A stretch of DNA of 59,080 bases from Acidobacteriota bacterium (GTDB lineage: Bacteria; Acidobacteriota; Blastocatellia; UBA7656): the NCBI GenBank assembly GCA_040755335.1, contig JBFMAU010000001.1:1-59080 (forward strand), read 5' to 3'. The notes beneath the pieces were generated by a model. The model was not told the origin of the DNA. It ran no database searches and saw nothing but the letters and a program-made list of their open reading frames with translations. Both the position numbers and the translations under genes were made by a program. Numbering within the stretch: position 1 is the first letter of the stretch; every line of letters begins with the position of its first letter. Below are positions 2,671 through 58,405 of the stretch, piece by piece.

Positions 2671-2682
2671 TCTGTCGGATTC

Positions 2683-2716
2683 AGAGCGCGGAATGGAACT
2701 TTGCATTCCGCGCTCT
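2683..2716 (+). terminator. Hairpin after the repeat-protein gene (13-bp stem AGAGCGCGGAATG / CATTCCGCGCTCT)
   Basis: Perfect inverted repeat starting 13 nt after the TAG at 2668-2670. No clear U-run follows, so it could be a weak terminator or an mRNA-stabilising hairpin. Confidence 0.45.
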
Positions 2717-2805
2717 CTGGACTCTCTGGCTTTCTACGGCTACATTTTCATTTCTCAAAGCCGCTGTCTCAGTGGAACAGCAAGCACAATCGAAGAGGTT
2801 CGCTG

Positions 2806-4179: not shown

Positions 4180-4316
4180 AGAGATGAAAGGGACTGGCTT
4201 TCAAAATGCGTTTGTCCAGTAAACCCTTATGACTCGATACAGCCGCTTCCGGGAAGCGTCTTGTGACGACGCACAGGCCGTTGCTCTCATTTGCTATCGC
4301 TGTCGAGGCTACAGAC

Positions 4317-6236: not shown

Positions 6237-6335
6237 CAGGGCAGACGCAAGCGGAATGTGTTGAAGAGGTGAATAGGTGAATAAGTGATTTGAGGGTTGC
6301 TTGCTGATCAGGCTGCTACTCGTTTCTCCAACCAC

Positions 6336-7187: not shown

Positions 7188-7828
7188 CAGTGTTTCTCCA
7201 ATAGCGGCTCAAGCATCCTGCGGAGCTTCACCATGCCAAGCCGCGTGCGCGTCTTTACTGTGCCGAGGGGCTGATTGAGTCTTGCGGCGATCTCGCTGTG
7301 GCTCAGACCTGCGTAGTAAGCCAGTTCTATGACCTCTCTTTGTTCCGGGGAGAGAGCGTCCAGAGCGGAACGCACCAGACGCCTGCGCTCTGAAAAAACG
7401 AGCGCGTCTTCAGGGTTCGATTCGCGGGACTGAAACTCGGCGGCCGTTTCGATATCTTCTCTGCGCTCGACCGCCGCGCTTTCCGAGCGCAGCCGATTGA
7501 GGGCGCGACTGCGGGCTATGACGAGCAGCCACGAAAGCGCCGCGCCGCGCTCAGGGTCATAGAGCGCGGCCTGTCGCCATACCTGAGTGTAGACATCGAG
7601 CAGTATCTCTTCTGAGGCCGAAGCGTCGCGCAGTATGCGCACTATCAATCCGAATATGAGCCGCTTCGTCGTGTCGTAGAGAGCCGCCAGAGCCTGTTGA
7701 TCTCCTTCAGCCACTCGACCGATGAGCGAGGCCCAATCCTGATCGCGCATGGCATCTGTGGGGCGACCTGAAACCGGGACTGCCGTTTCGCTCAATGCGC
7801 CGTCATCTTCTATAATGTCCGACTCCAT
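7187..7828 (-). CDS. ECF-type RNA polymerase sigma-70 family factor (SigK-like)
   Basis: Region 2 (LIFGLIVRILRDASASEEILLDVYTQVWRQAALYD) and region 4 (LSPEQREVIELAYYAGLSHSEIAARLNQPLGTVKTRTRLG) are recognisable. It is coupled to the downstream anti-sigma gene. Confidence 0.88.
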   Translation of the reverse strand: MESDIIEDDGALSETAVPVSGRPTDAMRDQDWASLIGRVAEGDQQALAALYDTTKRLIFGLIVRILRDASASEEILLDVYTQVWRQAALYDPERGAALSWLLVIARSRALNRLRSESAAVERREDIETAAEFQSRESNPEDALVFSERRRLVRSALDALSPEQREVIELAYYAGLSHSEIAARLNQPLGTVKTRTRLGMVKLRRMLEPLLEKH

Positions 7829-8181
7829 TTCTCATCTGTCCACTGGTATCAGGCTCGTTCAGTGCAGTGCGCTCGCCCGATTAAAAAACTTCCGCCCGAC
7901 TCCAAAGCGCTCTTCTATCGCGCAAGTATTCGGGAATCAAATACTGGCCAGACGCGCGGATACCTTCATCGGGGAGTAATGGAGCAGGCTTTGGGTTTCG
8001 CTCAAATTAAGAATACAGGCTGGGCGACGGCAATGGATTCGTCCGCAAAAAAGTTTTTGAAAGCAAATCCAATCCGCGGATGCGCCTGTAATGATTTGAC
8101 GACAACAACGCAAAACACAGGCGTGGTAGGCTGAATAATCCCCAGAAAAAATTCTTGTCAAAGAAGCGGAAGGAGTAGTGT

Positions 8182-9645
8182 ATGCATAAACGGTTCAAAG
8201 CCACTCGGCGCGTCATCGCGCTCGCTCTGCTTGTCTTCATCTCCGGCGTAATCATCGCGCAGCGACCCTCTCTGGCATCCTCCCACATGGATGCTCCACT
8301 GATAACGCTGGACCCGGCGGCCAATACGACCGACGTTTACGCTTTCGTTCAGGATGAAAGCAGCGGCCCTGTGCTGGTCACGGCCCTCGGCGTATACCCG
8401 CACCAGGAGCCGGGCATCGGCCCCAACAAATACAACTTCGATGATGATGTTCTCTACGAGATTCACGTCTCGACGGGCGATGACCTTCGCATCGGACGCG
8501 CCACCTTCAGCTATCAATTCAGATTCAACACGACGTTCAAGAATCAAAGAACGATCCTGCAATCCTACCTCGGTGTGATCAATAACGTGGGAGATGCCGG
8601 ACAGAATCTCGTTCAGACCTACACGATCACAAAGGTTGATCGCAGAACGGGCAAAAGCACGCTGCTCGGCGCGGGCATCTGCCCGCCGAACAATCAGGGC
8701 AACGCCACGCCTTTTTATAATCAGGGGGACAATGGCGAAAACCTGGCCAAAGACGGAGTGGCTACCGAGGCGGAACTTGATCGCTACACCCGACAGACGA
8801 TCTTCTCCCTGAGAAACGGTTACATCGCCTTTGCGGGTCAGCGCGATGACGGGTTCTATGCAGACATTCAGTCTGTGTTCGACCTTCTGCGACTGCGCAA
8901 TCCGGGCAAGGACTCGCAGGGCGGATTCAATCTTCACCTGATGGCGCTGGCCATTCCTCTGAGCGAACTGGGCGGCCCGATGCAGGTAGCCGGGGTCTAT
9001 GCCACGACCAGCCGCAGGGCCATCAGGATATTGAACGCGGGCAAGAGCGGAGTTTTTAACGACGGGCCATTCGTTCAGGTCGCCCGACAGGGAAATCCGT
9101 TGTTCAACGAAGGACTGGTAGCCATAGAGGATAAAGATCGCTACAGCAGATCATCGCCCGTCGTAGATTCGACGGTGTTCCGCAAATACGCGCTCAACCC
9201 TGAACTGGCCAGACTTATCAACGCGCTGGTCTTCAAGACTCCCGTCGCGCCCGAAACAAACCGCACCGATATCGCCGGAATTTTCATCCCCGACATGATC
9301 AAAGTCGACCTCTCGACAGGCCCGTGCAGACTTGCAGGAGGCGGCCCCAATCATCCGACCAACCCCGATGATGCGGGCTTTTCGCGCCTGAGCATCTTCG
9401 GCGGAGACACGCTCATCAGCCGACTTACAGGAAGAGCCGTCCCCGGCGGATGGCCCAATGGAAGGCGCTTCGGCGATGACGTGCTGGATATAGCTGTGAC
9501 GGCTCTCATCAGCGACCTGCGCCCCACGCCGCCGATCATACGAGGGCCTGCGGGCGACGGAGTCGATCAAAACGATATGGCTTTCAACAAGGTCTTCCCT
9601 TACGAATCGACCCCGCAAAACGGGCGCAACCATACTCATCCGTAG
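8182..9645 (+). CDS. DUF4331 domain-containing exported protein
   Basis: Signal peptide followed by SSHMDAPLITLDPAANTTDVYAF, the characteristic DUF4331 N-terminal motif (SSHREAP...D.YAF). Confidence 0.75.
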   Translation: MHKRFKATRRVIALALLVFISGVIIAQRPSLASSHMDAPLITLDPAANTTDVYAFVQDESSGPVLVTALGVYPHQEPGIGPNKYNFDDDVLYEIHVSTGDDLRIGRATFSYQFRFNTTFKNQRTILQSYLGVINNVGDAGQNLVQTYTITKVDRRTGKSTLLGAGICPPNNQGNATPFYNQGDNGENLAKDGVATEAELDRYTRQTIFSLRNGYIAFAGQRDDGFYADIQSVFDLLRLRNPGKDSQGGFNLHLMALAIPLSELGGPMQVAGVYATTSRRAIRILNAGKSGVFNDGPFVQVARQGNPLFNEGLVAIEDKDRYSRSSPVVDSTVFRKYALNPELARLINALVFKTPVAPETNRTDIAGIFIPDMIKVDLSTGPCRLAGGGPNHPTNPDDAGFSRLSIFGGDTLISRLTGRAVPGGWPNGRRFGDDVLDIAVTALISDLRPTPPIIRGPAGDGVDQNDMAFNKVFPYESTPQNGRNHTHP

Positions 9646-9718
9646 CGCCTTGAGCAACACGGCTTCATCAATCCTGTGATCGATGAAGAATCTCTCTTTT
9701 CTTTCTCGCACCACTTCA

Positions 9719-9745
9719 GGGGCCGGAGACCCGGCCCCTTTTTTT
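9719..9745 (+). terminator. Rho-independent terminator (GGGGCCGG-agac-CCGGCCCC + T7)
   Basis: Perfect 8-bp GC stem, 4-nt loop and a TTTTTTT run, located between the DUF4331 and TPR genes. Confidence 0.8.
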
Positions 9746-9752
9746 GATCGCC

Positions 9753-11075
9753 ATGAATAAAAAACTTTTCATTCTCGTCGCAGCAATAATCATCCTTGCA
9801 TCGCTCGCTTTTCTCTTCATCAAGCGAGACCCTGCGCAGGCCGTAGCCTCGCCCGTCGAGAGCGATGCTCACGCCACGATTGCCGACCTTCAGATTCGGC
9901 GGGCCGAAACGATCATCCGTCTTTCACCCTCACAGCCGGATGGGTATAACCTGCTGGCGCTGGCTTATATTCAGAAGGCTCGCGAGACGGGAGACTTCAG
10001 CTTCAATCTGAGAGCGGAAGCGGCTCTCAAACGCTCTATGGAAATAGCCCCCGATAATTTCGACGCGCTGAAACTGCAAGCCGTTTTTCTAATCGCCTCT
10101 CATCGTTTCTCTGAAGCCCTCGACTGGGCGCGACGCGCTCAGGCCATAGAGCCGGAAAGCCCCGACATCTACGGCGCGATGACAGACGCGATGATCGAGC
10201 TTGGAGATTATCAGGAGGCGTTCGACGCGGCTCAACGGATGATCGATCTCAGACCCGACAGCGCATCTTTCGCGAGAGCTTCCTTCGTGCGCGCGCTCAA
10301 TGGCCGCATAGCGGGCGCGATTGAAGCTATGCGCGTGGCCATTCGCGCCGCGCCGACGCGCGATGCGGAATCTCTCGCGTGGCTGCGAGTTCAGATGGGA
10401 AAGCTGTTGATGAGCGCGGGCAAACTCAAAGAAGCGGAAGAGCAGTTCGATCTCGCTTTGGAAGCGTTTCCATCTCATCACCTCGCGCTTGCGGCAAAGG
10501 CGCGAGCCAGACAGGCGGCAGGCGATCTTCAGGCGGCAATCGATTTCTACGAAAAATCTCAGGAGCGCGCCCCGCTTGCCGACACCGCCACGGCTCTGGG
10601 CGATCTGCACGCGAAGTTGAATCATCGGGACGAGGCGAAGCGACAGTATGAGCTTGTCGAGTTGATCGAAAATCCTTCATCAAACGCGAGCGACCTCAGA
10701 CAGTTGGCGCTCTTCTGGGCTGACCGCGATACGAGACTCGATGAAGCCCTTGAGATAGCGCGCCGCGCTCGCTCCAAACAATCAGACATCTACACCTGCG
10801 ACCTGCTCGCGTGGTGTTTGTTCAAAAAAGGCGCGCTCGCCCAGGCCAGAGCCGCTATCATCGAGGCGATGAGGCTGGGAACTAAGGATGCGCGAATTTA
10901 CTATCATGCAGGGATGATCTTCGACTCTCTGGGTGAGAGTCAAAAGGCGCGGAAGTATTTGAAAGCGGCTCTCGATATCAACGCGACTTTCGACAACAGC
11001 AATTCTTCTTTCGGCCCGCTTCAGCGAGATATTATACTCAGAACCCTCGAAGCCGGACGCGCAAGCCGGGACTGA
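9753..11075 (+). CDS. TPR-repeat protein with an N-terminal membrane anchor/signal
   Basis: ATG at 9753 (MNKKLFILVAAIIILASLAF). The rest of the ORF consists of repeated 34-aa A/L/Y-rich helical units (e.g. YNLLALAYIQKARETGD, ALKLQAVFLIASHRFSEAL). Confidence 0.8.
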   Translation: MNKKLFILVAAIIILASLAFLFIKRDPAQAVASPVESDAHATIADLQIRRAETIIRLSPSQPDGYNLLALAYIQKARETGDFSFNLRAEAALKRSMEIAPDNFDALKLQAVFLIASHRFSEALDWARRAQAIEPESPDIYGAMTDAMIELGDYQEAFDAAQRMIDLRPDSASFARASFVRALNGRIAGAIEAMRVAIRAAPTRDAESLAWLRVQMGKLLMSAGKLKEAEEQFDLALEAFPSHHLALAAKARARQAAGDLQAAIDFYEKSQERAPLADTATALGDLHAKLNHRDEAKRQYELVELIENPSSNASDLRQLALFWADRDTRLDEALEIARRARSKQSDIYTCDLLAWCLFKKGALAQARAAIIEAMRLGTKDARIYYHAGMIFDSLGESQKARKYLKAALDINATFDNSNSSFGPLQRDIILRTLEAGRASRD

Positions 11076-48128: not shown

Positions 48129-49427
48129 CTATTTGGAACCGGCTTTCGCGTTGAGCCGGAGGTCCTGTTTGTCGAGCGTATAATCGAGATAGCCGATCAT
48201 CATCTCCTCCCAGGTCTGCGGCCCCCACTCTACGAGCTTCGTCGGATCGGGATTGAATTTGTTCTTTGCCGAGTTATCGAAGTGCGCCACGCATTCCAAT
48301 CGACTGCCCTTAGGCGCGGCCACAGGCTCTTTGAAGAAATAAGTCTGTTGCCAGTTGAAGTCCCATCGCGGAACTGAAAGAAGCAGTTTCGATGCGCCGT
48401 CCGGGTAGACCAGCCGAAAGGAAAAATCCTTGCCTCGCATGTGCATGTGCGGATGCAGGCTGTCGATGTGACTGTCTTCCTTGAAGGTGAAAGAAGATTT
48501 CACCTCGTAATTCGGATCGCCGGGAGGGATGGCCAGAGAGCGTGCGAAAGCTCCCGCCGTGATGACGCGCTTCTCGACCGCCGCTCGCGAGAATATCAGC
48601 CCGACGCTTGAGCGGTCTGTGCCTGCGACGCCGTTTGTGGTGTAGTGAACCTGAAATACAAGCACGGAGCCTTTCTTGATGAGCTTGGCCTGACCGGGAT
48701 GCAGAATCAGAGGCGCTTCGCCCGGAGCCCAGCCCACGAGTCTGCCATCGGAATCGCCTGCTCGCGCGCCCTCTCCTCCACCCTGCTGGCGCGAGGCTGC
48801 CAGTCTTTCAGGCGTGATTTCTCCTGCTGGCGGCAACTGTCCCTGACCGGGATAGCGGACATCGACGATGATGTGATGGACGAGTTGGCGATTGCCCTGT
48901 CGAATCTCGGCAAACTGCACATACTTGTCTTCGGTGAAGTTGGTAGGCACGGCGAAATACTTATAAGGGATCACTCCTTCAGCCGGAACCGAGTATTCTT
49001 CGGTCATCGATAAAACCACATCGGGTTTGCCTATAGTCCATCCTTCGGTGAATTTGGGAAGAGGCGGAAGGTCGCGCGGGTCGCCTTCGATAGCGCCGCC
49101 GTTGACCCAGGCAGTGATCGTATCTATCTGCTTTTGCGATAAACGACAATCATTCGAAAATTCGGTATGCTGCTGGTCGGCAAACCAGGGGGGCATCCTT
49201 CGTTCGGCCACGACTTCGCGAATCGATTTAGCCCACGGGCGGACTTCCTTGTAGGTGACGAGCGACATAGGCGCTACTTCGCCCGCGCGGTGACAGGTGA
49301 TGCAGTTGTTATAGAGTATCGGCGCGACATCTTTGGTGAAAGTCATTCGTGTGTCGCTGCTGTTTGTCAGGCCGGTCGCCAGCAACACGCAAGCGAAAGC
49401 GCAGGCGAGGCCGAATAGTCGTTTCAT
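48129..49427 (-). CDS. Exported heme-c domain fused to a PHM/DBH-like copper monooxygenase core (paralog 2)
   Basis: Signal peptide, then [15 protein letters not shown]. Copper ligand pattern [23 protein letters not shown]. It is collinear with paralog 1. Confidence 0.7.
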
Positions 49428-49706: not shown

Positions 49707-50195
49707 TCAGAAAAGGATCGAACGAACGCGCTGGCGCAAACGATCAAGTTCGTCTGCGTTGTGTTGAAGCAGATCGTGTCCCCATCCCGATGTCGTATAG
49801 GTTTCTTCCCGGCACTCCTTTGCCAACACTGAACCTATAGTTTCGTAAGAGCCAAGCTTGGCTTTCTTGAGGTCTTCGGGGTTAGTCAGCGTGCCGAGGA
49901 CAAAAACTCTATCAGCCAAATCTTCGGGAATGAATTTTTTCCCAAACCTTAGTTTGAACTCCACCTTGCCGTCGAAGTCGATCAACAGAACCATGAATCG
50001 ATCAGGATAGCGATTCATTTCAGCGATGTGATCTGACTTGAAAAGCTCGAATACTTTCTTCCAACCGCGAGCCACCGGAAGCACACGCATTTGATTCTGT
50101 TGGTCAACACTCAGGAGAAAGCTGATTGCCAATTCGCTGTCAGCAGCGTCTTCGGGCAGCACCAAAACATGCGGTAGATTCTTGTTGATGCTCAT
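49707..50195 (-). CDS. Small acidic-motif protein, possible minimal Toprim/RloB-like partner of the upstream ATPase
   Basis: 162 aa. Its start overlaps the ATPase stop by 4 nt. HVLVLPE(15)DAADSE and VLLID(73)FD(75)G mimic the Toprim Glu ... DxD pattern. The codon usage is A/T-richer than in neighbouring genes. Confidence 0.5.
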   Translation of the reverse strand: MSINKNLPHVLVLPEDAADSELAISFLLSVDQQNQMRVLPVARGWKKVFELFKSDHIAEMNRYPDRFMVLLIDFDGKVEFKLRFGKKFIPEDLADRVFVLGTLTNPEDLKKAKLGSYETIGSVLAKECREETYTTSGWGHDLLQHNADELDRLRQRVRSILF

Positions 50196-51337
50196 GGTTC
50201 GACATCGCCGCGAATCAGCGCGTTGATCAGATCTCCGCTGATTTGAAGTTCATTGATAGGTCGAATGATCGTAGGTTCAAAATGGTTTCTCCTGTGAAGG
50301 TAAAGGATATTTTCACTGGAGAAATGCCGAACGGTCTCCTGATTATGCGAGGTTGCTATGAACTGGCCGCCCGACTGAAACGCTTTGCGAAGAGCCAGCA
50401 CAAAATGCCCGACTTCGTCTATGGCAAGATAATTGTCCGGCTCATCCCAGAAACAAAGCAGCGGCCCGTAAGCATCATTCGCGGCAAGCACCAAGGCGCA
50501 TATCATAAAACATTTCTCGCCGTCCGAGAGATCTTCGAACGGCAGGCTCATGCTTCCCTGCTCGGTTGAAAACTGGACTACAAGACTTCGATAATCTTTG
50601 CCTATCTCTGGATTCTTAATGTCCTTAAAGTCTCTTATCTCCTGCTTGAGATACTTGTCGATCTTGACGTAAGCGGCGGGCGCGTAGGCCAGCAGACCTG
50701 AAAACCATGCGCCAAAGTCTTTGACCTGTGTATCCGTATGCAACGTCTCTTGTGTGGATTCTCCTGTAATCAGACCAGGTATAGGTCGAAGGATAAGCAT
50801 ACGAGCGAGCCATTGCTTGAAAATGAACAGAGGGTCGTTCGGCGACTGTTCCTGAACTATCGGCAGAGCCACCAAGTGCCAGTCGATCAGGAACTTCGCC
50901 TCCCCCTCCCCTCTCGTTTTCGCAAGATGCACCTGCGCTTTTTCTCGCGTGTAGACAGGCTTGCCGTCAACAGCCAGTTTCTCTTCGAATACACGTAGTT
51001 CTTTAAATCCGCTGGGAAATTCAAAAGCGATAACGTACTCGTATATCTCGCCCTCCAATTCAACTTCGATCTCGAATCGCATAGGCACATCTGTGCGTCC
51101 GCGAGTGAAGTCTTTAGGCTTCGCAAGTTCGCTCACCCGGTTCGTGCCTCGCGCTATCTTCTGTAGAATCTCCAGCGCAAGTCCGACCGCCGTTTTTCCC
51201 GATCCGTTTTTTCCTATCAGCAGGACGGACGAATGGCCCGCGATTGGCAACTCGAAGTTTTCCAGACACCGGAAGTTGTGGACGTAAAATCGTCTTATCA
51301 CGAGGGGATGATACTGCGCTTTTGAAGGCAGGCTCAA
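50192..51337 (-). CDS. ABC/SMC-type (AAA_15/AAA_21-like) ATPase
   Basis: N-terminal FYVHNFRCLENF, Walker A GKNGSGKT (residues 42-49), LSDGEK signature-like motif, Walker B LLCFWDEPD, H-loop ATSHN. The start is a TTG at 51337 with no obvious SD, so the start is uncertain (an alternative GTG is at 51301). Confidence 0.8.
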   Translation of the reverse strand: MSLPSKAQYHPLVIRRFYVHNFRCLENFELPIAGHSSVLLIGKNGSGKTAVGLALEILQKIARGTNRVSELAKPKDFTRGRTDVPMRFEIEVELEGEIYEYVIAFEFPSGFKELRVFEEKLAVDGKPVYTREKAQVHLAKTRGEGEAKFLIDWHLVALPIVQEQSPNDPLFIFKQWLARMLILRPIPGLITGESTQETLHTDTQVKDFGAWFSGLLAYAPAAYVKIDKYLKQEIRDFKDIKNPEIGKDYRSLVVQFSTEQGSMSLPFEDLSDGEKCFMICALVLAANDAYGPLLCFWDEPDNYLAIDEVGHFVLALRKAFQSGGQFIATSHNQETVRHFSSENILYLHRRNHFEPTIIRPINELQISGDLINALIRGDVEP

Positions 51338-51381: not shown

Positions 51382-51756
51382 TCACTCCACATCGCGCTTT
51401 CCCAATCGAGAGGCCAGCGCGACTCCTACGCCTATGATTCTCTCTGTCGCTTCCATTGGTCTCTGACCCGCCGGAGTCTCCAGCGATCCCGGCTCTGCGA
51501 TCAATCCTATCCGCGCGCTTCCTTCATGCTCGATCAGAACTATGTCGCCCGCGTCGGCCACATCCGCAGCGGTGAAAAATATCACGTCGCCTGCGAAGAG
51601 ATTCTTTTCGGGCCATGAACTGTTCACCCTCACGCATTCGTAATCGCCTTCCGCGAGTATTCCTGCCTCGACCAGAAGATCATCATCCGCCGCGTAGAGT
51701 TGAAGCCGCCTCTCGTCTTTTTCCATAAGCAGATTCAATTCGCCCGCGCGCGTCAA
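51382..51756 (-). CDS. S24 (LexA/UmuD)-like peptidase-fold protein without a DNA-binding domain (tentative)
   Basis: YECVRVNSSWPEKNLFAGDVIFFTAADVADAGDIVLIEHEGSARIGLI aligns in pattern with UmuD [47 protein letters not shown]. A Ser is retained, but the catalytic Lys position is not obviously conserved. The start overlaps the permease stop (51753-51756). Confidence 0.45.
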   Translation of the reverse strand: MTRAGELNLLMEKDERRLQLYAADDDLLVEAGILAEGDYECVRVNSSWPEKNLFAGDVIFFTAADVADAGDIVLIEHEGSARIGLIAEPGSLETPAGQRPMEATERIIGVGVALASRLGKRDVE

Positions 51757-53312
51757 CGTCCGAGCTTGACGGATAAAAACTCTCGCACCACTTCACGCGC
51801 GTCGCGCCCTTCGCCATCGACTGCGAGATTGAGCCGCCGCATCTCCGCGTCCGTTATCTTTCCCGCAAGAGAGTTGATCGCAGCCGCCACCTGCGGATGG
51901 CGTTGCAAAGTCTCGCGCCGAACAATCGCCGCAGCTTCATAAGGCGGGAAATATCGCTGGTCGTCCTGAAGCTGAACAAGACCGAGTTTATCGATCAATC
52001 CGTCGGTCGAATTGCCCGCGATCAAATCGACCTGACTTGATGCGAGCGCGCGATAGGAAAGCGATAAATCCATCTCGCGCGGCGCAGCCGCGAACTTCAA
52101 TCCGTAAGCCCGCGCAAAGCCCGCGTAGCCGTCTTCTCTCGACATGAAATCCTGCCCGAATCCGGCTCTCCACCGAGGAGCATACCTTGCCGCGTCCGAA
52201 ATAGTTTTGAGGTTGAGCCTTTCAGCTTCCGCGCCGCGCACGAGTATCGCAAAAGTGTTTTCAAATCCCAAAGGTTCCATCCATTCCAGACCGAACTCCG
52301 AGAGATATTCGCGTTTTACCTGATCGTAAACTTTTCGCGGATCGGTGATGGGCTGATGTTTGAGTATCGCCGTGAAAGCCGTGCCGGTGTATTCGACATA
52401 AACATCCATCTCGCCCGCTATCATCGCGCGATGGCAGAGGTCGCCTCCCAACTCGAATTTTCTCTCGACCTCCAACCCGGTTTTCATTTCGATCACCTGC
52501 GCGATCATCTCGCCCAGTATGACCTGTTCGGTGAAATCCTTCGAGCCGATGACTATGCGCTCTCTGTTTTTCGATAACACCCCGCTGCCCGCGATCACCA
52601 GTGCGGCGAGCGCAACGGCTCCTGTCGCAAGCGTGATCTTCGCCGTTTTCGCGGCTTTCGCTCTTCCGGGCGCGAGTTGCCTTTCGATCAAACCTAAAAA
52701 GAAATCCGCCGCGAGCGCCATCACTGCCGCAGGAATCGCGCCTGCAAGTATCAAAGTGTTATCGCTCATTCTCAGTCCGCGAAAGATGTATGTGCCGAGT
52801 CCGCCCGCGCCTATGGCCGCAGCTATGGTCGCCGTTCCTACGGAAATCACCGTAGCCACGCGAAGACCCGCAATGATGACGCTTGCGGCAAGCGGAAGCT
52901 CGACCTGCGCGAGCATCTGAGAGTCTGTCATCCCCATCCCGCGCGCAGCCTCGCGCACGCCCGCATCGACTCCCTGTATCCCTGTGAAGGTGTTTCTGAT
53001 GATTGGCAGAAGCGAATAAAGAAAGAGCGCGATCGTGGCAGGGACGCGGCCTATGCCGTAGGAGCCAAGCAGCGGAATTAAAAACCCGAACAGCGCGAGG
53101 CTCGGAACGGTTTGAAGAATGTTGGTTGCGGCAAGCACAGGCTTGCTCAACGCGGGTCGACGGGTGAGAAGTATGCCGACAGGGATGCCTACAGCCGCGG
53201 CGGCCAAGATGGAGACGGCGACGAGAAAAAGATGCTCAAGGGTGAGTTGCGCAACATCGCCGCGATTTTTTATAAGGAAGTTAAGGAAGTTTATGAGGTC
53301 AGTCATTATCAA
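51753..53312 (-). CDS. ABC transporter permease fused to a betaine-type (OpuBC/OpuCC, EgtU-like) substrate-binding domain
   Basis: 519 aa. The N-terminal ~210 aa form a multi-TM permease. The C-terminal ~300 aa form a periplasmic binding domain (IVIGSKDFTEQVILGEM...GTAFTAIL...ENTFAILVR), as in quaternary-amine SBPs. Confidence 0.85.
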   Translation of the reverse strand: MIMTDLINFLNFLIKNRGDVAQLTLEHLFLVAVSILAAAAVGIPVGILLTRRPALSKPVLAATNILQTVPSLALFGFLIPLLGSYGIGRVPATIALFLYSLLPIIRNTFTGIQGVDAGVREAARGMGMTDSQMLAQVELPLAASVIIAGLRVATVISVGTATIAAAIGAGGLGTYIFRGLRMSDNTLILAGAIPAAVMALAADFFLGLIERQLAPGRAKAAKTAKITLATGAVALAALVIAGSGVLSKNRERIVIGSKDFTEQVILGEMIAQVIEMKTGLEVERKFELGGDLCHRAMIAGEMDVYVEYTGTAFTAILKHQPITDPRKVYDQVKREYLSEFGLEWMEPLGFENTFAILVRGAEAERLNLKTISDAARYAPRWRAGFGQDFMSREDGYAGFARAYGLKFAAAPREMDLSLSYRALASSQVDLIAGNSTDGLIDKLGLVQLQDDQRYFPPYEAAAIVRRETLQRHPQVAAAINSLAGKITDAEMRRLNLAVDGEGRDAREVVREFLSVKLGR

Positions 53313-54043
53313 CCCATCGCTTCACAAAAAGCTCTCGCTTCCTCATTGTCAGAACGGGCGAACGCGGCAGGTTCCGATATCTCGACTAATCGACCATCCT
53401 TGAACAAGCCTATCCGGGAGGCGAGCGCGAACGCTTCGCGGACATCGTGCGTGACGAAGACAATCGTTTTGTGGAGCGAGCGCGAAAGCTGGGCAAATTC
53501 GCGTTGAAGCTCTGCGCGCGTCAGAGGATCAAGCGCGCCGAACGGCTCGTCCATCAAAATTATCGGCGGGTCTGCCGCAAGCGCGCGCGCAACGCCCACC
53601 CTCTGACGCTGGCCCCCGGAAAGCTCATGCGGATAGCGACGAGAGAACACAGCAGGGTCGAGTCCGACCATATTGAGAAGATCGCGGACGCGCTCGCCTG
53701 TTCTCGCTTCGTCCCAACCTTCGAGTCGCGGAACCACTGAAATATTTCTTTCGACCGTGAAATGCGGAAACAATCCCGTCTCCTGAATCACGTAGCCGAT
53801 GTGCCTGCGAAGTCGAATCGCATCCCATGCAGTCGTGGGTTTCTGCTCGACTCTCACTTCGCCCGCAGCCGGATCGAGCAGCCGGTTGATGAGCTTGAGA
53901 GTAGTCGTCTTTCCCGATCCGCTTCTTCCCAGAAGCACAAGGGTTTCGCCTCGCGCGATCTGAAAATTCAAACCTTCGACCATCGTCTTGCCGCTCGCGC
54001 GGGCGACCGTGTTGCGAAACTCAATGACCGAATCGCCTGTCAT
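53309..54043 (-). CDS. ABC transporter ATP-binding protein (quaternary-amine type, no CBS tail)
   Basis: Walker A GRSGSGKTT, Q-loop, LSGGQRQRVGVARAL, Walker B ILMDEPFGALD, H-loop THD. The 4-nt overlap with the permease gene is at 53309-53312. Confidence 0.9.
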   Translation of the reverse strand: MTGDSVIEFRNTVARASGKTMVEGLNFQIARGETLVLLGRSGSGKTTTLKLINRLLDPAAGEVRVEQKPTTAWDAIRLRRHIGYVIQETGLFPHFTVERNISVVPRLEGWDEARTGERVRDLLNMVGLDPAVFSRRYPHELSGGQRQRVGVARALAADPPIILMDEPFGALDPLTRAELQREFAQLSRSLHKTIVFVTHDVREAFALASRIGLFKDGRLVEISEPAAFARSDNEEARAFCEAMG

Positions 54044-54046
54044 CTC

Positions 54047-55045
54047 TCACCTGACCGCAAACAGATTGAAGCTGAACCGTCGAAGCGAATCTGTCCACGT
54101 CCTGTCGAGCGAAAAGTTTGATTCGCGCGCAAGAGCGGCTAATTGATCTGTGTCGTACTTGTAAGAATTTTCGGTGTGGATCGTTTCGCCTTCTTCGAAA
54201 TGAATCTCCACATCGAGCGAGCGTATGGCGATGGTCTGACGCGCGCGGCTCACGAGATACATCTCCATTCGCCCTTCGCTTTCGTTGTAGACGGCGCGAT
54301 GCTCGAATTTTTTAAGATCGAAATTCGCTCCAAGCTCGCGGTTGATCCTTACGAGCAGATTCAAATTGAATACGGCAGTGACTCCGAGCGGGTCGTCATA
54401 AGCTGGAACGAGAATGTCAGCCGTTTTTTTCAAATCCGCGCCGACGAGCAATCCGTCTCCGCTGTGAAGCGCTCTTCTGACGGCGCGCAGAAAAGCGAGA
54501 GATTCGTCGCGGTCAAAGTTGCCTATGTTCGATCCCAGAAACAAAGCCATCGCGCGCTCATCCGTCGCGCGCGGCTCTTCGCTCATCGCTTCGAGAGCGG
54601 TGAAGTAATCCGCAGCGTAAGCGGTGATGCGAAGGCGCGGATAGGTCTTGAGCAGTTCGCGGCTGCTTTCTGCTATGCTCGCGGGCGAGATGTCGATTGG
54701 CTCGTAGTGAAGCGCGCCCTGACGGGCGAGAAGCGCATCGATGAGATAACGGGTCTTTTCTGCGCTGCCGCTGCCCAACTCGATCAATCGCACAGGGCCG
54801 CGTATCGAAGCGGCTATCTCTTCCGCGTGATTGCGAAGTATCTCGCTTTCGGCGCGGGTGAGATAGTATTCCGGCAAGCGGCAGATGGCGACGAAGAGTT
54901 GAGAGCCGAGGTCATCGTAAAAATATTTCGGCAGCAGAGATTTTTTCTTCGACGAAAGGCCCGCCCTCACATCGTCGGCAAAAGAGTTTGCGCCCAAAGT
55001 GTGAGCAAGATTGTGAACTGTCAATCGGTCGCTGATCTCAGACAC
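54047..55045 (-). CDS. egtD: L-histidine N-alpha-methyltransferase (hercynine synthase, EgtD family)
   Basis: Near end-to-end resemblance to mycobacterial EgtD: DVRAGLSSKKKSLLPKYFYDDLGSQLF..LPEYYLTRAE, ELGSGSAEKT, FLGSNIGN, AYDDPLGVTAVFNLN, NRELGANFDLKKFEH, ENSYKY. GTG start at 55045. Confidence 0.9.
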   Translation of the reverse strand: MSEISDRLTVHNLAHTLGANSFADDVRAGLSSKKKSLLPKYFYDDLGSQLFVAICRLPEYYLTRAESEILRNHAEEIAASIRGPVRLIELGSGSAEKTRYLIDALLARQGALHYEPIDISPASIAESSRELLKTYPRLRITAYAADYFTALEAMSEEPRATDERAMALFLGSNIGNFDRDESLAFLRAVRRALHSGDGLLVGADLKKTADILVPAYDDPLGVTAVFNLNLLVRINRELGANFDLKKFEHRAVYNESEGRMEMYLVSRARQTIAIRSLDVEIHFEEGETIHTENSYKYDTDQLAALARESNFSLDRTWTDSLRRFSFNLFAVR

Positions 55046-55158
55046 TTGTGAATCCTTTTATTTTCATATTCGCGCTCGCCGCATCGATCATTGACAAGGC
55101 AATGGTATATTACTCCTTCCTTCGGTGACAAACTTTGACCGGACGAAGCGAGCATTGC

Positions 55159-55974
55159 ATGAAAAATACAAGACTTGCCCTTATCGGTTTTCCATTCGAC
55201 CGGTACTCCTCTTACCTGAGAGGCGCGGCTCAGGCTCCGCCTCTCATTCGTCAGGCGTTTCGCTGTCCCTCATCGAATATGTGGACTGAATCAGGAATCG
55301 ATTTGGAAAACGCTTTCTTCGACGCGGGCGATGTGGATTTCTCTTCCGTAGAAGCGTTCGCTCTCATCGAATCGGCGATCACAGATTTGCTCGATAGAAA
55401 CCTCGCGCCCATCTCTTTAGGCGGCGATCATTCGATCACGTATCCGATCATCCGCGCCTTTCGCAGAAAGTATCCGCGATTGAGCATACTGCATTTCGAC
55501 GCGCATTCGGATATCTACGACGTATTCGAGGGCAATCGCTTCTCTCACGCCTGCCCTTTCGCGCGCATCATGGAAGAAGGCTTGGTCGAAAGACTGGTTC
55601 AGGTAGGCATTCGCACGCTGAGTCGCCATCAACGAGAGCAGGTCGCGCGCTTCGGCGTAGAAGTTCACGAGATGAAAGACTGGCGCGACGATATCAAGCT
55701 GGAATTCGATTCGCCGCTCTACATTTCATTCGATATGGACGGACTCGACCCTGCGTGCAGCCCCGGAGTTTCGCACCCTGAACCGGGAGGACTGACTACC
55801 CGACAGGCCGTGGGCGTGATTCAATCCGTCAGGGCTTGCGTCGTCGGAGCCGATATAGTTGAATTCAATCCCGCGCGAGATGTGTCCGGGATAACCGCGA
55901 TGGCTTGCGCGAAACTTCTCAAAGAAATCGCCGCGCAAACGCTTGAGCAAGGCGAAGGAAAGGAAAAGGAATGA
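55159..55974 (+). CDS. Arginase-family ureohydrolase (agmatinase / formimidoylglutamase-like)
   Basis: ATG at 55159. Mn-ligand motifs LGGDHSITYP, FDAHSDIYD, SFDMDGLDPA and a downstream E. Confidence 0.85.
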   Translation: MKNTRLALIGFPFDRYSSYLRGAAQAPPLIRQAFRCPSSNMWTESGIDLENAFFDAGDVDFSSVEAFALIESAITDLLDRNLAPISLGGDHSITYPIIRAFRRKYPRLSILHFDAHSDIYDVFEGNRFSHACPFARIMEEGLVERLVQVGIRTLSRHQREQVARFGVEVHEMKDWRDDIKLEFDSPLYISFDMDGLDPACSPGVSHPEPGGLTTRQAVGVIQSVRACVVGADIVEFNPARDVSGITAMACAKLLKEIAAQTLEQGEGKEKE

Positions 55975-56900
55975 GCATAATGAGAAGCGTCCTGCTTGCA
56001 GGATCGCAAAGCGCGTGGCTGCGCAATCAGGCCCCGCGTTACCGTTTCGTGCGTCGCGCAGTGTCGCGATTTATGCCCGGTGAAAAAGTCGAAGACGCAA
56101 TCGAAGCCGCCCGCGCGCTCGTCGGCGAAAATATAGGAACCGTTTTCACTCACCTCGGAGAAAACATCGCTGACCGAAAAGAGTCGGAAGAAGTGGCCGA
56201 TCATTACCTTGAGGTGTTGGACAAAATAGCGGCGGCAAATTTATCGACTGAGATTTCAGTCAAGCTCACTCAACTGGGACTCGATCTGAGTGACGAGCTT
56301 TGTTATGAGAATCTGAAAAAGGTCATCACCCGCGAATCCGCTTCGCGCACGGTCTGGATAGATATGGAGCAGACCGATTATGTCGACCGCACGCTCGATA
56401 TTTATCGCCGCGCGAAATCGGATTTTCCGAACGTCGGCCTTTGTCTTCAGTCTTATCTTTATCGAACTGAAAAAGACCTCGATTCACTGATGCCGCTCAG
56501 TCCGGCTATCAGATTAGTGAAGGGCGCGTACAGAGAACCCGCTGACCGCGCCTATCCGCGCAAGCGAGACGTTGATGAAAATTATTTCAAGCTCACACAA
56601 AAACTTTTGAGCGAAGAGGCGCGAAGTCTGAATGTGCGCGCAGGCATCGCCACGCACGATGCGGAATTGATTCGACGAACGGAAGAGTTCGCGGCTAAGG
56701 AAGGCATCGCGAAAGACAAGGTGGAGTTTCAGATGCTTTATGGAATTCAGCGCGGCGCGCAGCAGCGATTGGCGAAGGATGGACACAGAATGATCGTGCT
56801 GATCTCTTACGGAGATTTCTGGTTCCCGTGGTACATGCGAAGACTGGCCGAGCGACCCGCCAACGTCTGGTTCGTCGTCAAGAATATGTTTTCAGGATAA
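55971..56900 (+). CDS. Proline dehydrogenase (monofunctional PutA-like)
   Basis: 309 aa, ATGA overlap with the ureohydrolase gene. Motifs VKLTQLG, RLVKGAY, ATHD, FQMLYGI. Confidence 0.85.
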   Translation: MSIMRSVLLAGSQSAWLRNQAPRYRFVRRAVSRFMPGEKVEDAIEAARALVGENIGTVFTHLGENIADRKESEEVADHYLEVLDKIAAANLSTEISVKLTQLGLDLSDELCYENLKKVITRESASRTVWIDMEQTDYVDRTLDIYRRAKSDFPNVGLCLQSYLYRTEKDLDSLMPLSPAIRLVKGAYREPADRAYPRKRDVDENYFKLTQKLLSEEARSLNVRAGIATHDAELIRRTEEFAAKEGIAKDKVEFQMLYGIQRGAQQRLAKDGHRMIVLISYGDFWFPWYMRRLAERPANVWFVVKNMFSG

Positions 56901-57166: not shown

Positions 57167-58405
57167 TCACCAGCGGCCCAGCAGTTTGCGTTTGTGGCTG
57201 TCTTTGAGATGCTCGCGGACTTTTTTCTCGTCCATCCATTCCGGGTGCGGAATCCGAACTTCGCTCGCCTCATCGACAAGCTCTTTGAGATGGCTGCTGA
57301 TGGCAGCCTCAGCCAGCAGGTATCCGTGATTCTCAAGCACACAGGCTTCGGCCTCAGAGAATGCGTCAAGGTCTGTGCGAATTTTTCTTATGACCTCATC
57401 TACAAGCGCCTCGGAGTAAGCCTCACTGCCGCCATCATAATGTTTGACCGCGCTGCCTATGCCCCAGTACGCGCCTTTGAAACTCTTGTTGATGAAACCC
57501 GCTATGAGCCATCGCTTGCGCAATGCCAAAGACTGTTTGCCCTGTATCTCGGTGTAACGCGACAGACGATAAAACAATCCTTTATCCGGCTCGAAATCGA
57601 ACACGGCACCGCCGTCTGAAACCAGAACATACTCGCTCGTCTTCCACACAGGCTCAAGTCCCAGATTGTCGTAGTTGCCTCCATCGGTCAGCCGCAACCC
57701 GCGGATTCTTTCATCGCGCTGTCCGCTTTGATCCTTTCCGCCTTTCAACAGAACGGGATCGATATTGATTGGCAGCGGATTGAACACGGGAGGAAAACAG
57801 GAGGAAGCCGCAATGGCTCGCGCTGCAAGCCATTCGTCAGGCGGATTCATATAGCCCGCTTCATAATCCCCCGCGCGAGTCCGCTCGAAAATCCAGTTGA
57901 CTCCATAAGCCATATCGGTCGCGCAAAAGATGAAGTTCTTCTCCTCGGGCAGTTCCTTCAGGTGGAGCGAGATCAAATCTTTTGCGTAGCGCGAAGCCAG
58001 CGCGCGGACGGCTGTGCTGCTCGTGAACCAGTTCCACGGAAGCAGTCGGCTCAGAATCGGAAAGGTGCGGATGTTTTTCGATGTGAATTGACGAAACGGC
58101 GCGGCCACGGTCTCTTCCCAGTCGGTGTAAACCCTCTCGCCCGACTCTTTGAGGCAGCGGGCGAGATGTCCAGCCAGAATGCTACCGCCCGACACGGACG
58201 AGAAAACATCCGTCTTGCGCAGGATGCCAGTTTCATTGAGCCTTCGGAGCGCGCCGAGATGAAACAGAGATGCGCGAAATCCTCCGCCCGACAAACACAG
58301 GGCTATCCCTGATCGTCTGGCTTGAGGAGTGTAGACATCAAGCGCGTGTTCGGTCGCCGTTTTTTCATCGACCGCCTTTGCCGCATCTTCAGGATATGCG
58401 CTCAT
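57167..58405 (-). CDS. Patatin-like phospholipase
   Basis: Oxyanion LSGGGFRASLFHLG, nucleophile SVSGGS (GxSxG), catalytic Asp TDGGNYDNLG. A C-terminal ~130-aa extension has no recognisable domain. Confidence 0.85.
   Translation of the reverse strand: MSAYPEDAAKAVDEKTATEHALDVYTPQARRSGIALCLSGGGFRASLFHLGALRRLNETGILRKTDVFSSVSGGSILAGHLARCLKESGERVYTDWEETVAAPFRQFTSKNIRTFPILSRLLPWNWFTSSTAVRALASRYAKDLISLHLKELPEEKNFIFCATDMAYGVNWIFERTRAGDYEAGYMNPPDEWLAARAIAASSCFPPVFNPLPINIDPVLLKGGKDQSGQRDERIRGLRLTDGGNYDNLGLEPVWKTSEYVLVSDGGAVFDFEPDKGLFYRLSRYTEIQGKQSLALRKRWLIAGFINKSFKGAYWGIGSAVKHYDGGSEAYSEALVDEVIRKIRTDLDAFSEAEACVLENHGYLLAEAAISSHLKELVDEASEVRIPHPEWMDEKKVREHLKDSHKRKLLGRW

What the first reader, a model, noticed from the sequence alone, without database searches (positions are those of the whole stretch)
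51753..55045. egtD in a tight operon with an EgtUV-like betaine-type ABC importer, and no egtB in the window
Seen in the sequence: a clear EgtD (histidine trimethylase) is followed after 3 nt by an ABC ATPase, then by a 4-nt-overlapping permease-SBP fusion.

Established: EgtD makes hercynine, and ergothioneine synthesis additionally needs EgtB/EgtE or EanB. The ergothioneine importers EgtUV of H. pylori and S. pneumoniae are exactly this permease-SBP fusion plus ATPase of the OpuB/OpuC class.

Inference: biosynthesis of a histidine betaine is genetically wired to an uptake system for a related compound. Possible explanations are hercynine or ergothioneine recapture, hercynine used as the end product or osmolyte, or import of a precursor. 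I see no sulfoxide synthase (DinB + FGE domains) anywhere in the 59 kb.
Basis: partly seen in the sequence, partly recalled or inferred. Interest (0 to 1): 0.6.

Follow-up and report, generated by a model that had tools for sequence, protein, structure and literature searches.

The report
EgtD operon with dedicated betaine-type importer
A soil acidobacterium encodes the enzyme that makes hercynine (precursor of the antioxidants ergothioneine and selenoneine) in one operon with an ATP-driven betaine-family uptake pump; the pump's unusual binding pocket never varies and it sits beside this enzyme in several phyla, so producers probably also take up a histidine betaine, which nobody has tested.

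Summary
On the minus strand lie egtD (54047-55045), a 244-aa ABC ATPase (53309-54043) and a permease-binding-domain fusion (51753-53312), tightly packed. There is no egtB in the window.

The genome does hold a type II (cysteine-using) egtB on contig C500 and a full senC-senA-senB selenoneine cluster on C94. It has only one egtD. Hercynine is therefore an intermediate here, not the end product.

The transporter has the EgtUV architecture but fails the published S. pneumoniae EgtU pocket signature: it has F, Y and F where EgtU has G244, F293 and Y337. It belongs to a single clade of 94 sequences from several phyla. In that clade the pocket is invariant: K242, D243, F244, D275, F341, D375, R379, N419.

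An EgtD-family gene lies beside the transporter in 66 of 79 loci, in three gene arrangements. In Blastocatellia, egtD, egtB and the transporter are present or missing together within five genera.

My best reading (0.55) is an importer for a histidine betaine, hercynine first, forming a make-or-take supply module. The main rival is an ordinary glycine-betaine importer. The substrate is untested.

A 2026 paper tabulates this co-localisation, and this scan has noted the same pairing on other genomes. I rate it a new variant of a known kind, of moderate interest.

The parts
54047..55045 (-). egtD, L-histidine N-alpha-methyltransferase (hercynine synthase), 332 aa. It is the only egtD in the genome.
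   Evidence: TIGR03438 359.6 bits against a cut-off of 290.9, and PF10017 at E 2e-111. It is the single match in the genome. It scores 226 bits against solved EgtD 7scf/4pim. The GTG start is preceded by AAGGA.
53309..54043 (-). ABC ATPase of the betaine/proline/choline (ProV/OpuBA) class, 244 aa. It is the nucleotide-binding domain only, with no CBS tail.
   Evidence: PF00005 at E 6.6e-36. TIGR01186 proV scores 262 bits over model positions 5-220 of 363. Walker A GRSGSGKT, signature LSGGQRQR and Walker B ILMDEP are read. The ATG lies 3 nt after the egtD stop.
52575..53312 (-). Permease half of the fusion protein (about residues 1-246), including a last hydrophobic helix at residues 228-246 that tethers the binding domain.
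   Evidence: BPD_transp_1 covers residues 42-213. Hydropathy peaks are listed. The start is either TTG at 53312 (4-nt overlap with the ATPase stop) or ATG at 53306 (2-nt gap, giving the 517-aa P0001).
51753..52565 (-). Substrate-binding domain of the fusion (about residues 250-519, plus the stop codon). It is of the OpuAC / cluster F-III type, with pocket K242 D243 F244 G274 D275 Y293 T296 F337 N339 F341 D375 R379 D381 N419 Y443 in S. pneumoniae EgtU numbering.
   Evidence: PF04069 at E 3.9e-62. PDB sequence matches score about 159-209 bits against the sensor scaffolds derived from a choline/betaine-binding protein, OpuBC/OpuCC, HpEgtU, SpEgtUC and AfProX. The pocket was read from MAFFT alignments. 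The AF2 model has pLDDT 92.3. Foldseek gives TM 0.91 to H. pylori EgtU apo 8dp6 and 0.88 to AfProX 3mam.
55102..55131 (-). Promoter-like site (TTGTCA, 18 nt, TACCAT) in the 89-nt gap between egtD and the divergent agmatinase gene.
   Evidence: Consensus scan, matching 9 of 12 positions. This is a pattern match only, not evidence of function.

Best explanation
The three genes form one transcription unit that couples hercynine synthesis (EgtD) to a binding-protein-dependent ABC importer of the quaternary-amine (OpuB/OpuC/ProX) class.

The importer belongs to a distinct cross-phylum clade with an invariant, aspartate-rich pocket. It most likely takes up a histidine betaine from outside the cell. 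My first choice is hercynine itself; second is ergothioneine or selenoneine.

The cell can then either make hercynine, at the cost of three S-adenosylmethionine per molecule, or take it up. It then feeds the unlinked type II EgtB (giving ergothioneine) and SenA (giving selenoneine).

Shown here: gene identities, tight packing, conservation of the pairing, the pocket residues, and the presence of egtB and senCAB elsewhere in the genome.

Inferred: co-transcription, the direction of transport (from the tethered binding domain), and the substrate.
For: 1. Linkage. In the own family, egtD lies upstream on the same strand within 6 kb of the transporter in 26 of 33 genomes. Either the ATPase alone or egtA plus the ATPase lies between them.

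2. Spread. In 79 related loci with 58-91% identity, an EgtD-family gene is in the flank in 66: 33 upstream on the same strand, 31 divergent, 2 downstream. These come from Blastocatellia, Terriglobia, Binatia, Chloroflexota, Limnocylindrales and Udaeobacter MAGs. Eight of the 13 without egtD are contigs cut just upstream.

3. Independent recruitment. Other betaine-type transporter lineages also sit in egtB/egtD clusters, including two fusions in the reverse order, binding domain then permease (L014, L015, L016).

4. Presence and absence. In 151 Blastocatellia genomes, 119 of the 120 with a transporter match have egtD. Fifteen of the 16 without egtD lack the transporter, and also lack egtB. Five genera (g24, g26, g36, g39, g40) hold genomes of both kinds.

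5. Pocket. The carboxylate clamp K242/T296/R379 is kept, so the ligand is a carboxylate betaine and not choline. D243, D275, D375, F341 and N419 are invariant in all 79 loci. The D243/D375 type is one clade of 94 tips with support 0.94 and no exceptions.

6. Position 243. This side chain lies closest to the thione sulfur in both solved EgtU complexes (I243 in Sp, P296 in Hp; 10.1101/2025.07.28.667264). Here it is an invariant aspartate. I infer that this fits an imidazole C-H/N-H edge better than a sulfur.

7. No CBS domains. The ATPase lacks the CBS domains that osmoregulated OpuA/OpuC/ProU ATPases carry (the role of CBS domains is from my own knowledge).

8. Shared partner. EgtD is the only partner common to ergothioneine-type neighbourhoods (EgtB) and selenoneine-type neighbourhoods (SenA, 495 bits in L060).
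Against: No binding or transport data exist for any member of this clade.

The three positions that Zhang et al. 2022 (PMC9732360) name as ergothioneine determinants read F244, Y293 and F337 here. That is exactly as in the glycine-betaine/proline-betaine binder AfProX.

The sister pocket type (N243/E375, also with F341/N419) occurs in 11 Acidobacteriota genomes that lack egtD. Nine of the ten N243/E375 genomes tested for EgtB had none; the eleventh, G251, was not listed among the N243/E375 genomes that were tested. The ancestral substrate is therefore probably a common betaine.

This is the only OpuAC-domain system in the genome, and no BCCT carrier is found, so it could simply be the cell's general betaine importer.

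Sequence and fold similarity do not separate EgtU from OpuB/OpuC/ProX.

The presence/absence counts are not corrected for shared ancestry. The D243 argument is reasoning from homologous structures, not a docking or a measurement.
Confidence: 0.55

Rival explanations
1. It is an ordinary compatible-solute importer for glycine betaine, proline betaine or similar. It sits beside egtD because betaine-type solutes are regulated together, or because imported methylated compounds relieve the methyl demand of EgtD. On this reading histidine betaines are not its substrate.
For: The pocket matches AfProX at K13, F15, Y63, T66, F107 and R149. The closest solved relatives are choline/betaine binders. It is the only OpuAC or BCCT system found in the genome. 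The sister pocket type occurs in genomes without egtD or egtB.
Against: The ATPase has no CBS osmosensing domain. Two of the four cage tyrosines are replaced (Y341F, Y419N). Three aspartates that AfProX lacks are invariant across phyla. The D243/D375 clade lies beside EgtD in 66 of 79 loci, whereas the N243/E375 type does so in 4 of 56 genomes. The transporter is lost together with egtD and egtB within five genera.
Confidence: 0.25
2. It recaptures only the end product, working like EgtUV. It re-imports ergothioneine (and selenoneine) that leaks or is secreted, and hercynine is not a substrate.
For: It has the same architecture as EgtUV, a permease-binding-domain fusion plus an ATPase. The distantly related H. 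pylori EgtU binds ergothioneine with a proline at position 243 and a glycine at 274, not the S. pneumoniae residues (10.1101/2025.07.28.667264), and Zhang et al. report that transporters outside the S. pneumoniae-like subcluster, which do not conserve its determinants, contribute to uptake there (PMC9732360). Some relatives embed the transporter in full egtB-egtD-egtA clusters.
Against: The residues that contact sulfur in both solved EgtUs are replaced by an invariant aspartate (243) and a glycine (274), and G244 is a phenylalanine. The constant neighbour is EgtD, not EgtB or SenA. In this genome egtB and senA are unlinked.
Confidence: 0.15
3. It imports a precursor that is not a betaine, such as histidine or partly methylated histidine, to feed EgtD.
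For: Co-expressing a substrate importer with the first enzyme of a pathway is a common design. One cage tyrosine is an asparagine, and three aspartates could hold a primary or secondary ammonium group. This is inference only.
Against: Three aromatic cage residues (Y293, F341, Y443) and N339 are kept as in quaternary-amine binders. All solved relatives bind quaternary amines or related cations. S. pneumoniae EgtUC binds histidine very weakly (PMC9732360).
Confidence: 0.04

Closest known systems
EgtUV / EgtU of Streptococcus pneumoniae (spd_1642-1643; PDB 7TXK/7TXL) and Listeria BilEB (4Z7E)
   Same: A type I ABC importer made of a permease-binding-domain fusion and a separate ATPase. The binding domain has the cluster F-III fold. 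The carboxylate clamp K242/T296/R379, N339, D381 and Y443 are kept.
   Different: About 32% identity. G244 is F, F293 is Y, Y337 is F, I243 is D, T274 is G, T275 is D, E375 is D, Y341 is F and Y419 is N. The Firmicutes described as carrying S. pneumoniae-type EgtU are taken to acquire ergothioneine from outside, whereas this clade sits beside egtD in producers (PMC9732360). It is not a member of the SpEgtU subcluster.
Helicobacter pylori EgtUV (binding domain 8DP6 apo, 8DP7 with ergothioneine)
   Same: Same architecture and fold: TM 0.91 to the apo form, 33-34% identity. Glycine at the position of T274, as here. H. pylori EgtU shows that the S. pneumoniae residues at positions 243 and 274 are not required to bind ergothioneine (10.1101/2025.07.28.667264; PMC9732360).
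   Different: Position 243 is proline in H. pylori and an invariant aspartate here. I could not retrieve the rest of the H. pylori pocket.
Archaeoglobus fulgidus ProX (1SW1/1SW2/3MAM), a glycine-betaine/proline-betaine binding protein
   Same: K13, F15, Y63, T66 and F107 are identical at the homologous positions, read from the AfProX sequence. R149 and the glycine before T/D275 correspond too (R149 numbering from memory). TM 0.88 to 3MAM. A 2026 survey labels such neighbours of ergothioneine genes 'PBP2_AfProX_like' (PMC13674229).
   Different: P14 is D, the threonine at the position of 275 is D, Y111 is F, Y190 is N and E145 is D. D109 is N. Here the domain is fused to the permease and linked to egtD.
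Bacillus subtilis OpuBC/OpuCC, and the choline/betaine-binding scaffold behind iNicSnFR/iAChSnFR (which I recall to be a Thermoanaerobacter OpuBC)
   Same: These are the best sequence and fold matches: 170-209 bits and TM up to 0.94.
   Different: According to PMC9732360, OpuBC and OpuCC orient the ligand through backbone hydrogen bonds rather than a conserved lysine. The sensor scaffold reads I, not K, at position 242 (engineered variant). They bind choline, carnitine and a broad range of betaines, and the Bacillus systems are osmoregulated (from my own knowledge).
Co-localisation of OpuB/AfProX-like ABC genes with sulfoxide/selenoxide synthase genes (Table 1 of PMC13674229, J Am Chem Soc 2026)
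   Same: The same association. An ABC ATPase lies within 5 kb of 13.6% of these synthase genes, and an 'OpuBB/PBP2_AfProX_like' permease within 5 kb of 5.4%.
   Different: There the genes are listed among housekeeping neighbours and not analysed. Here the partner is shown to be EgtD, and the transporter is shown to be one clade with an invariant pocket.

Membership tests
EgtD (L-histidine N-alpha-methyltransferase, TIGR03438 equivalog) | Score above the curated equivalog cut-off, with the full-length Methyltransf_33 domain | tested here: met
   359.6 bits against a cut-off of 290.9. PF10017 covers residues 22-329, profile positions 1-302 of 304.
EgtD (L-histidine N-alpha-methyltransferase, TIGR03438 equivalog) | Histidine-recognising residues of mycobacterial EgtD (Glu/Ser in the E-x-S motif, Met in the M-x-L motif, Asn in G-N, Tyr in A-Y-D-D) | tested here: inconclusive
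   The motifs EnS, MeMyL, iGNf, aYDDp and lpeYY align with those of 7scf. Which residues define histidine specificity is recalled from the literature, not checked here.
EgtD (L-histidine N-alpha-methyltransferase, TIGR03438 equivalog) | Produces hercynine from histidine and S-adenosylmethionine | not testable with these tools
   This needs an enzyme assay or LC-MS.
Quaternary-amine (OpuB/OpuC/ProU) type I ABC importer | An ATPase with Walker A, Walker B and signature motifs; a BPD_transp_1 permease; an OpuAC binding domain | tested here: met
   PF00005, PF00528 and PF04069 all score above their cut-offs. The motifs are read.
Quaternary-amine (OpuB/OpuC/ProU) type I ABC importer | Tandem CBS domains on the ATPase (the osmosensing members OpuA, OpuC, ProU) | tested here: not met
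   244 aa, no CBS match, and only positions 5-220 of the 363-position proV model are matched.
EgtU (ergothioneine-specific importer, S. pneumoniae type) | A permease-binding-domain fusion with a separate ATPase | tested here: met
   The same layout is seen in the L. salivarius EgtU homologue, which scores 312 bits against 7txl.
EgtU (ergothioneine-specific importer, S. pneumoniae type) | Invariant G244 and the F293/Y337 'Y-to-F switch' (PMC9732360) | tested here: not met
   F244, Y293 and F337 in the window and in all 79 related loci, except one locus with Y at position 244.
EgtU (ergothioneine-specific importer, S. pneumoniae type) | Sulfur-contacting I243 and T274, and E375 hydrogen-bonded to the ring nitrogen | tested here: not met
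   D243, G274 and D375.
EgtU (ergothioneine-specific importer, S. pneumoniae type) | Carboxylate clamp K242/T296/R379 and the aromatic cage F293/Y341/Y419/Y443 over N339 | tested here: inconclusive
   The clamp and N339 are kept. The cage reads Y, F, N, Y, so one aromatic side is lost.
EgtU (ergothioneine-specific importer, S. pneumoniae type) | High-affinity, selective binding of ergothioneine | not testable with these tools
   This needs ITC, DSF or uptake assays.
AfProX-type glycine-betaine/proline-betaine binding protein | A four-tyrosine box (Y63, Y111, Y190, Y214) with K13, T66, R149 and E145 | tested here: not met
   Y63, K13, T66, R149 and Y214 correspond. Y111 is F, Y190 is N and E145 is D. 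AfProX numbering beyond residue 131 comes partly from the literature and from the fragment at residues 172-194.
Complete ergothioneine pathway in this genome | EgtD together with a sulfoxide synthase | tested here: met
   EgtB at C500:804-2108 scores 578 bits against a cut-off of 360, and 531 bits against the type II EgtB of Chloracidobacterium. No egtA, egtC or dedicated egtE was found. That fits the cysteine-using type II route, which needs only a generic C-S lyase (this last point is from my own knowledge).

The most novel reading that the evidence does not exclude
The clade defined by D243, D275, D375, F341 and N419 is the first dedicated hercynine importer. Bacteria that make ergothioneine or selenoneine would then scavenge or exchange the shared intermediate hercynine, which is also what oxidised ergothioneine decays to. 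That would spare three S-adenosylmethionine per molecule. The egtD-transporter pair would be a 'make-or-take' hercynine supply module serving both EgtB and SenA.
Probability: 0.3. Interest if true: 0.7.

Novelty: new variant of a known kind. Interest (0 to 1): 0.5.

Why it matters
The known bacterial ergothioneine transporters were found in pathogens described as taking the compound up from outside rather than making it. Whether producers take histidine betaines back up, and whether hercynine is exchanged between microbes in soil, is unknown.

This work defines a specific, testable candidate. It is one transporter clade, found in at least five phylum-level groups, with an invariant pocket unlike both EgtU and ProX, and it is almost always encoded beside EgtD.

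If it binds hercynine or ergothioneine, three things would follow:
- The metabolic budget of ergothioneine and selenoneine producers would change.
- Genome annotation would gain a marker residue set; all these proteins are now named 'glycine betaine ABC transporter'.
- There would be a new binding scaffold for hercynine or ergothioneine sensors.

If it binds only glycine betaine, the linkage would point to a regulatory or methyl-economy tie between betaine uptake and hercynine synthesis.

Tried and rejected
- H. pylori EgtU pocket. I tried to read it residue by residue. Dumitrescu et al. 2022 (PMC9691600) is not held. In three PDB searches, 8dp6 never reached the five alignments that are printed. 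Only positions 243 and 274 are known, from the 2025 preprint.
- Supplements of PMC9732360. They hold no sequences.
- Sequence and fold similarity as a guide to substrate. They do not discriminate. EgtU, OpuBC/OpuCC, ProX and the sensor scaffolds all score within about 50 bits and 0.15 TM of each other, and the AF2 model is in the open form, so it simply favours apo structures.
- Hercynine as the end product. Rejected: egtB and senA are present.
- egtB just outside the window. Rejected as far as it can be seen. The window is the whole contig, and relatives with this gene order also keep the type II egtB on another contig.
- The 113-aa ORF downstream (51382-51723) as an operon member. Rejected: it is conserved only in the congener.
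- Riboswitch or other known RNA element. None reaches the Rfam gathering score anywhere in the window.
- A first extraction of binding domains took the wrong reading frame in 15 GC-rich loci. I redid it with frame choice by alignment score.

Full report
**What is there**

On the minus strand of the window lie three tightly packed genes.

- egtD, 54047-55045. It scores 359.6 bits on the EgtD equivalog model TIGR03438 (cut-off 290.9). It matches Methyltransf_33 end to end and scores 226 bits against solved mycobacterial EgtD.
- The ATPase, 53309-54043. It is a 244-aa ABC ATPase of the ProV/OpuBA class. It matches only the first 220 of 363 positions of the proV model and has no CBS domain.
- The fusion, 51753-53312. 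It is a 519-aa protein with a BPD_transp_1 permease (residues 42-213), a last hydrophobic helix (228-246) and an OpuAC binding domain (252-514).

The junctions read TGA-GAG-ATG between egtD and the ATPase. Between the ATPase and the fusion there is either a 4-nt overlap (TTG start) or a 2-nt gap (ATG start, which is the 517-aa public version P0001). A promoter-like site lies in the 89-nt gap to the divergent agmatinase gene. No known RNA element was found.

**The organism and the rest of the pathway**

The window is the whole of contig C1 of a 7.85-Mb metagenome-assembled genome. It has 808 contigs, 98% completeness and 5.4% contamination. Its closest protein relatives are named Blastocatellia / Acidobacteriota.

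No EgtB-like gene lies on C1. The genome does have one on C500 (804-2108), scoring 578 bits against a cut-off of 360. That protein scores 531 bits against the type II, cysteine-using EgtB of Chloracidobacterium thermophilum (6o6l, 6qki).

egtA, egtC and a dedicated egtE were not found. This fits the type II route.

Contig C94 carries, in a row:
- SelD/SenC, 333 bits;
- SenA, NF041186, 489 bits against a cut-off of 420;
- SenB, TIGR04348, 419 bits against a cut-off of 300.

This is a selenoneine cluster, and it also needs hercynine. The genome has a single egtD, the one in the window. The congener G129 has the same set. Hercynine is therefore an intermediate feeding two unlinked branches, not the end product.

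**Is the pairing more than chance?**

In a sample of 151 Blastocatellia genomes, 120 have a transporter match, 135 have egtD and 119 have both.

In the own family, egtD lies upstream on the same strand within 6 kb in 26 of 33 genomes:
- 11 have only the ATPase between egtD and the fusion;
- 14 have about 2.3 kb between them, which is a glutamate-cysteine ligase (egtA-like) plus the ATPase, with an egtB divergent from egtD, as in the two such loci inspected (L010/L031);
- 1 has about 6 kb between them.

In other families of the class both genes exist but are mostly unlinked. In Chloracidobacterium they lie on different chromosomes.

Fifteen of the 16 genomes without egtD also lack the transporter, and all 16 lack egtB. 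Five genera (g24, g26, g36, g39, g40) contain both kinds of genome, so the three features were gained or lost together repeatedly.

In 301 Acidobacteriota genomes, 64 of the 76 with the binding domain have egtD, against 68 of 225 without it. The odds ratio is 12, uncorrected for shared ancestry.

Other betaine-type transporter lineages are also built into egtB/egtD clusters, including two fusions in the reverse order, binding domain then permease (L014, L015, L016, L017).

**A defined clade with an invariant pocket**

I recovered the S. pneumoniae EgtUC sequence through a Ligilactobacillus homologue and half of AfProX. I then aligned them with the window protein.

The window protein keeps the carboxylate clamp (K242, T296, R379), together with N339, D381 and Y443. 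So its ligand should be a carboxylate betaine.

It fails every feature that Zhang et al. 2022 (PMC9732360) and Legg et al. 2025 (10.1101/2025.07.28.667264) tie to ergothioneine recognition: G244 is F, F293 is Y, Y337 is F, I243 is D, T274 is G and E375 is D. At positions 244, 293 and 337 it is identical to AfProX.

It also differs from AfProX in five places: Y111 is F, Y190 is N, E145 is D, P14 is D and T is D at position 275.

In 79 loci fetched from named genomes (58-91% identity), all of these pocket residues are invariant or nearly so. The loci come from Blastocatellia, Terriglobia, Binatia, 'Deltaproteobacteria', Chloroflexota, Limnocylindrales, Udaeobacter and Syntrophobacter MAGs. An EgtD-family gene lies in the flank of 66 of them.

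The EgtD-like genes next to the Binatia-type transporters score 285-297 bits on TIGR03438, right at the cut-off of 290.9. SenA lies nearby in some of those loci.

Across the phylum sample there are two pocket types:
- D243/D375: 15 genomes, all with egtD, 7 adjacent.
- N243/E375: 56 genomes, 45 with egtD, 4 adjacent, 11 without egtD. Nine of the ten of these tested for EgtB had none.

In a tree of 164 binding domains, the D243/D375 type is a single clade of 94 tips. Its support is 0.94, it has no exceptions, and it is nested inside the N243/E375 group. It splits into two subclades. The acidobacterial one has egtD on the same strand. The Binatia-type one has egtD divergent (31 of 34 tips; the other three are cut contigs).

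**How it most likely works**

A tethered binding domain on a type I ABC permease means import. This is from established knowledge of the family.

The lack of CBS domains argues against an osmotically gated system.

EgtD is the constant partner, whether the neighbourhood makes ergothioneine, selenoneine, or has neither synthase nearby. That points to the compound all these pathways share, hercynine, or to its close derivatives.

The side chain at position 243 is the one nearest the thione sulfur in both solved EgtU complexes. Here it is an invariant aspartate, with two further invariant aspartates around the ring site. I infer that this suits the N-H and C2-H edge of an imidazole or imidazolium better than a sulfur.

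I therefore read the operon as a make-or-take supply module for hercynine, with ergothioneine or selenoneine recapture as the second option. My confidence that the substrate is a histidine betaine is 0.55.

The main rival (0.25) is an ordinary glycine-betaine or proline-betaine importer. The evidence for it:
- the pocket is ProX-like at several positions;
- the sister type occurs without egtD;
- this is the only OpuAC or BCCT system in the genome.

Fold comparison cannot decide. The AF2 model (pLDDT 92.3) matches apo H. pylori EgtU at TM 0.91, AfProX at 0.88, OpuBC/OpuCC at up to 0.91, and ergothioneine-bound SpEgtUC at 0.77-0.79.

**Comparison with what is known, and novelty**

The architecture is that of EgtUV, but membership of the S. 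pneumoniae EgtU subcluster is ruled out by the tested determinants.

A 2026 survey already lists ABC ATPases and 'OpuBB/PBP2_AfProX_like' permeases among the genes found within 5 kb of sulfoxide and selenoxide synthase genes. The frequencies are 13.6% and 5.4%, and the survey treats them as housekeeping neighbours (PMC13674229). I found no paper in the held library that tests such a transporter.

This scan has noted the same pairing on other genomes many times (48 notes). Several follow-ups reached similar readings, including an unusual invariant pocket and a glycine-betaine-like pocket. I re-derived those points here independently on this window.

- the genome-wide pathway picture (type II EgtB plus SenCAB, with a single EgtD);
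- the repeated co-loss of egtD, egtB and the transporter within genera;
- the split into two pocket types with different linkage to egtD;
- the single origin of the aspartate-rich type.

It is a new variant of a known kind. It is worth a binding assay, but not yet a surprise.

**Limits**

- The substrate, co-transcription and the direction of transport are inferred.
- The H. pylori pocket could not be read beyond two positions.
- Counts across related genomes are not independent.
- The genome is a fragmented MAG, so 'not found' means not found in 98% of a bin.

Noticed in passing
G000 contig C94:953-4613 (L002): A complete selenoneine cluster in the same genome: SelD/SenC (953-1903, 333 bits), SenA (2287-3654, NF041186 489 bits against a cut-off of 420) and SenB (3651-4613, TIGR04348 419 bits against 300). 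By PDB sequence, the closest solved relative of the SenA is the ovoselenol enzyme OvsA (319 bits), ahead of SenA itself (251 bits).
   Followed up: partly
G000 contig C500:804-2108 (L001): The genome's egtB is a type II, cysteine-using enzyme, scoring 531 bits against Chloracidobacterium thermophilum EgtB (6o6l). It lies on a 5.4-kb contig next to a ketosteroid-isomerase-like ORF and a 746-aa open frame. No egtA, egtC or egtE equivalog was found in the genome.
   Followed up: partly
window 49707-51337, minus strand: Just downstream of the operon lies a 381-aa AAA_21/AAA_15 ATPase. It has weak matches to the defence ATPases AbiLi, mad3, AriA, GajA and PtuA. A 162-aa ORF without any family match overlaps it by 4 nt. 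This is a candidate two-gene defence module.
   Followed up: partly
window 51382-51723, minus strand: A 113-aa ORF starts 29 nt after the transporter stop. It has no family match. It is conserved at 88% only in the congener G129 and absent from all other related loci. An earlier first-reader note calls it S24/LexA-like.
   Followed up: partly
window 55135-56900, plus strand: Divergent from egtD lie an agmatinase (TIGR01230, 194 bits against a cut-off of 174) and a Thermus-type proline dehydrogenase. They overlap by 4 nt and look like an arginine/proline catabolic pair.
   Followed up: no
L014 (G083:C265) 3281-7927 and L015 (G143:C41) 5601-9984: Two Blastocatellia genomes carry a different transporter next to egtB-egtD. 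It is fused in the reverse order, binding domain then permease, and is 35-50% identical to the window protein. In L015, egtD is split into two overlapping ORFs (5601-6200 and 6191-6559), which suggests a frameshift or a pseudogene.
   Followed up: partly
L076 2685-3497, and similar ORFs in L078, L081, L085, L089, L101: In Binatia-type loci, a short protein of about 270 aa lies 1.5-2.5 kb from the EgtD-like gene. It carries only the C-terminal FGE-sulfatase-like part of EgtB/SenA (about 100-106 bits on the EgtB and SenA models). Its role is unknown.
   Followed up: no
Acidobacteriota genomes G361, G221, G353, G259, G242, G160, G154, G414, G322 (L105-L113): The sister pocket type (N243 or H243 with E375) occurs as ATPase-permease-binding protein operons in genomes in which no egtD or egtB was found. 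Some of these have separate genes rather than a fusion. They are useful natural controls for substrate tests.
   Followed up: partly
window 57167-58405 and 48129-49427, minus strand: A patatin-like phospholipase (412 aa), and a 432-aa protein with only a weak match to the C-terminal domain of copper type II monooxygenases (E 5e-4, below the cut-off).
   Followed up: no
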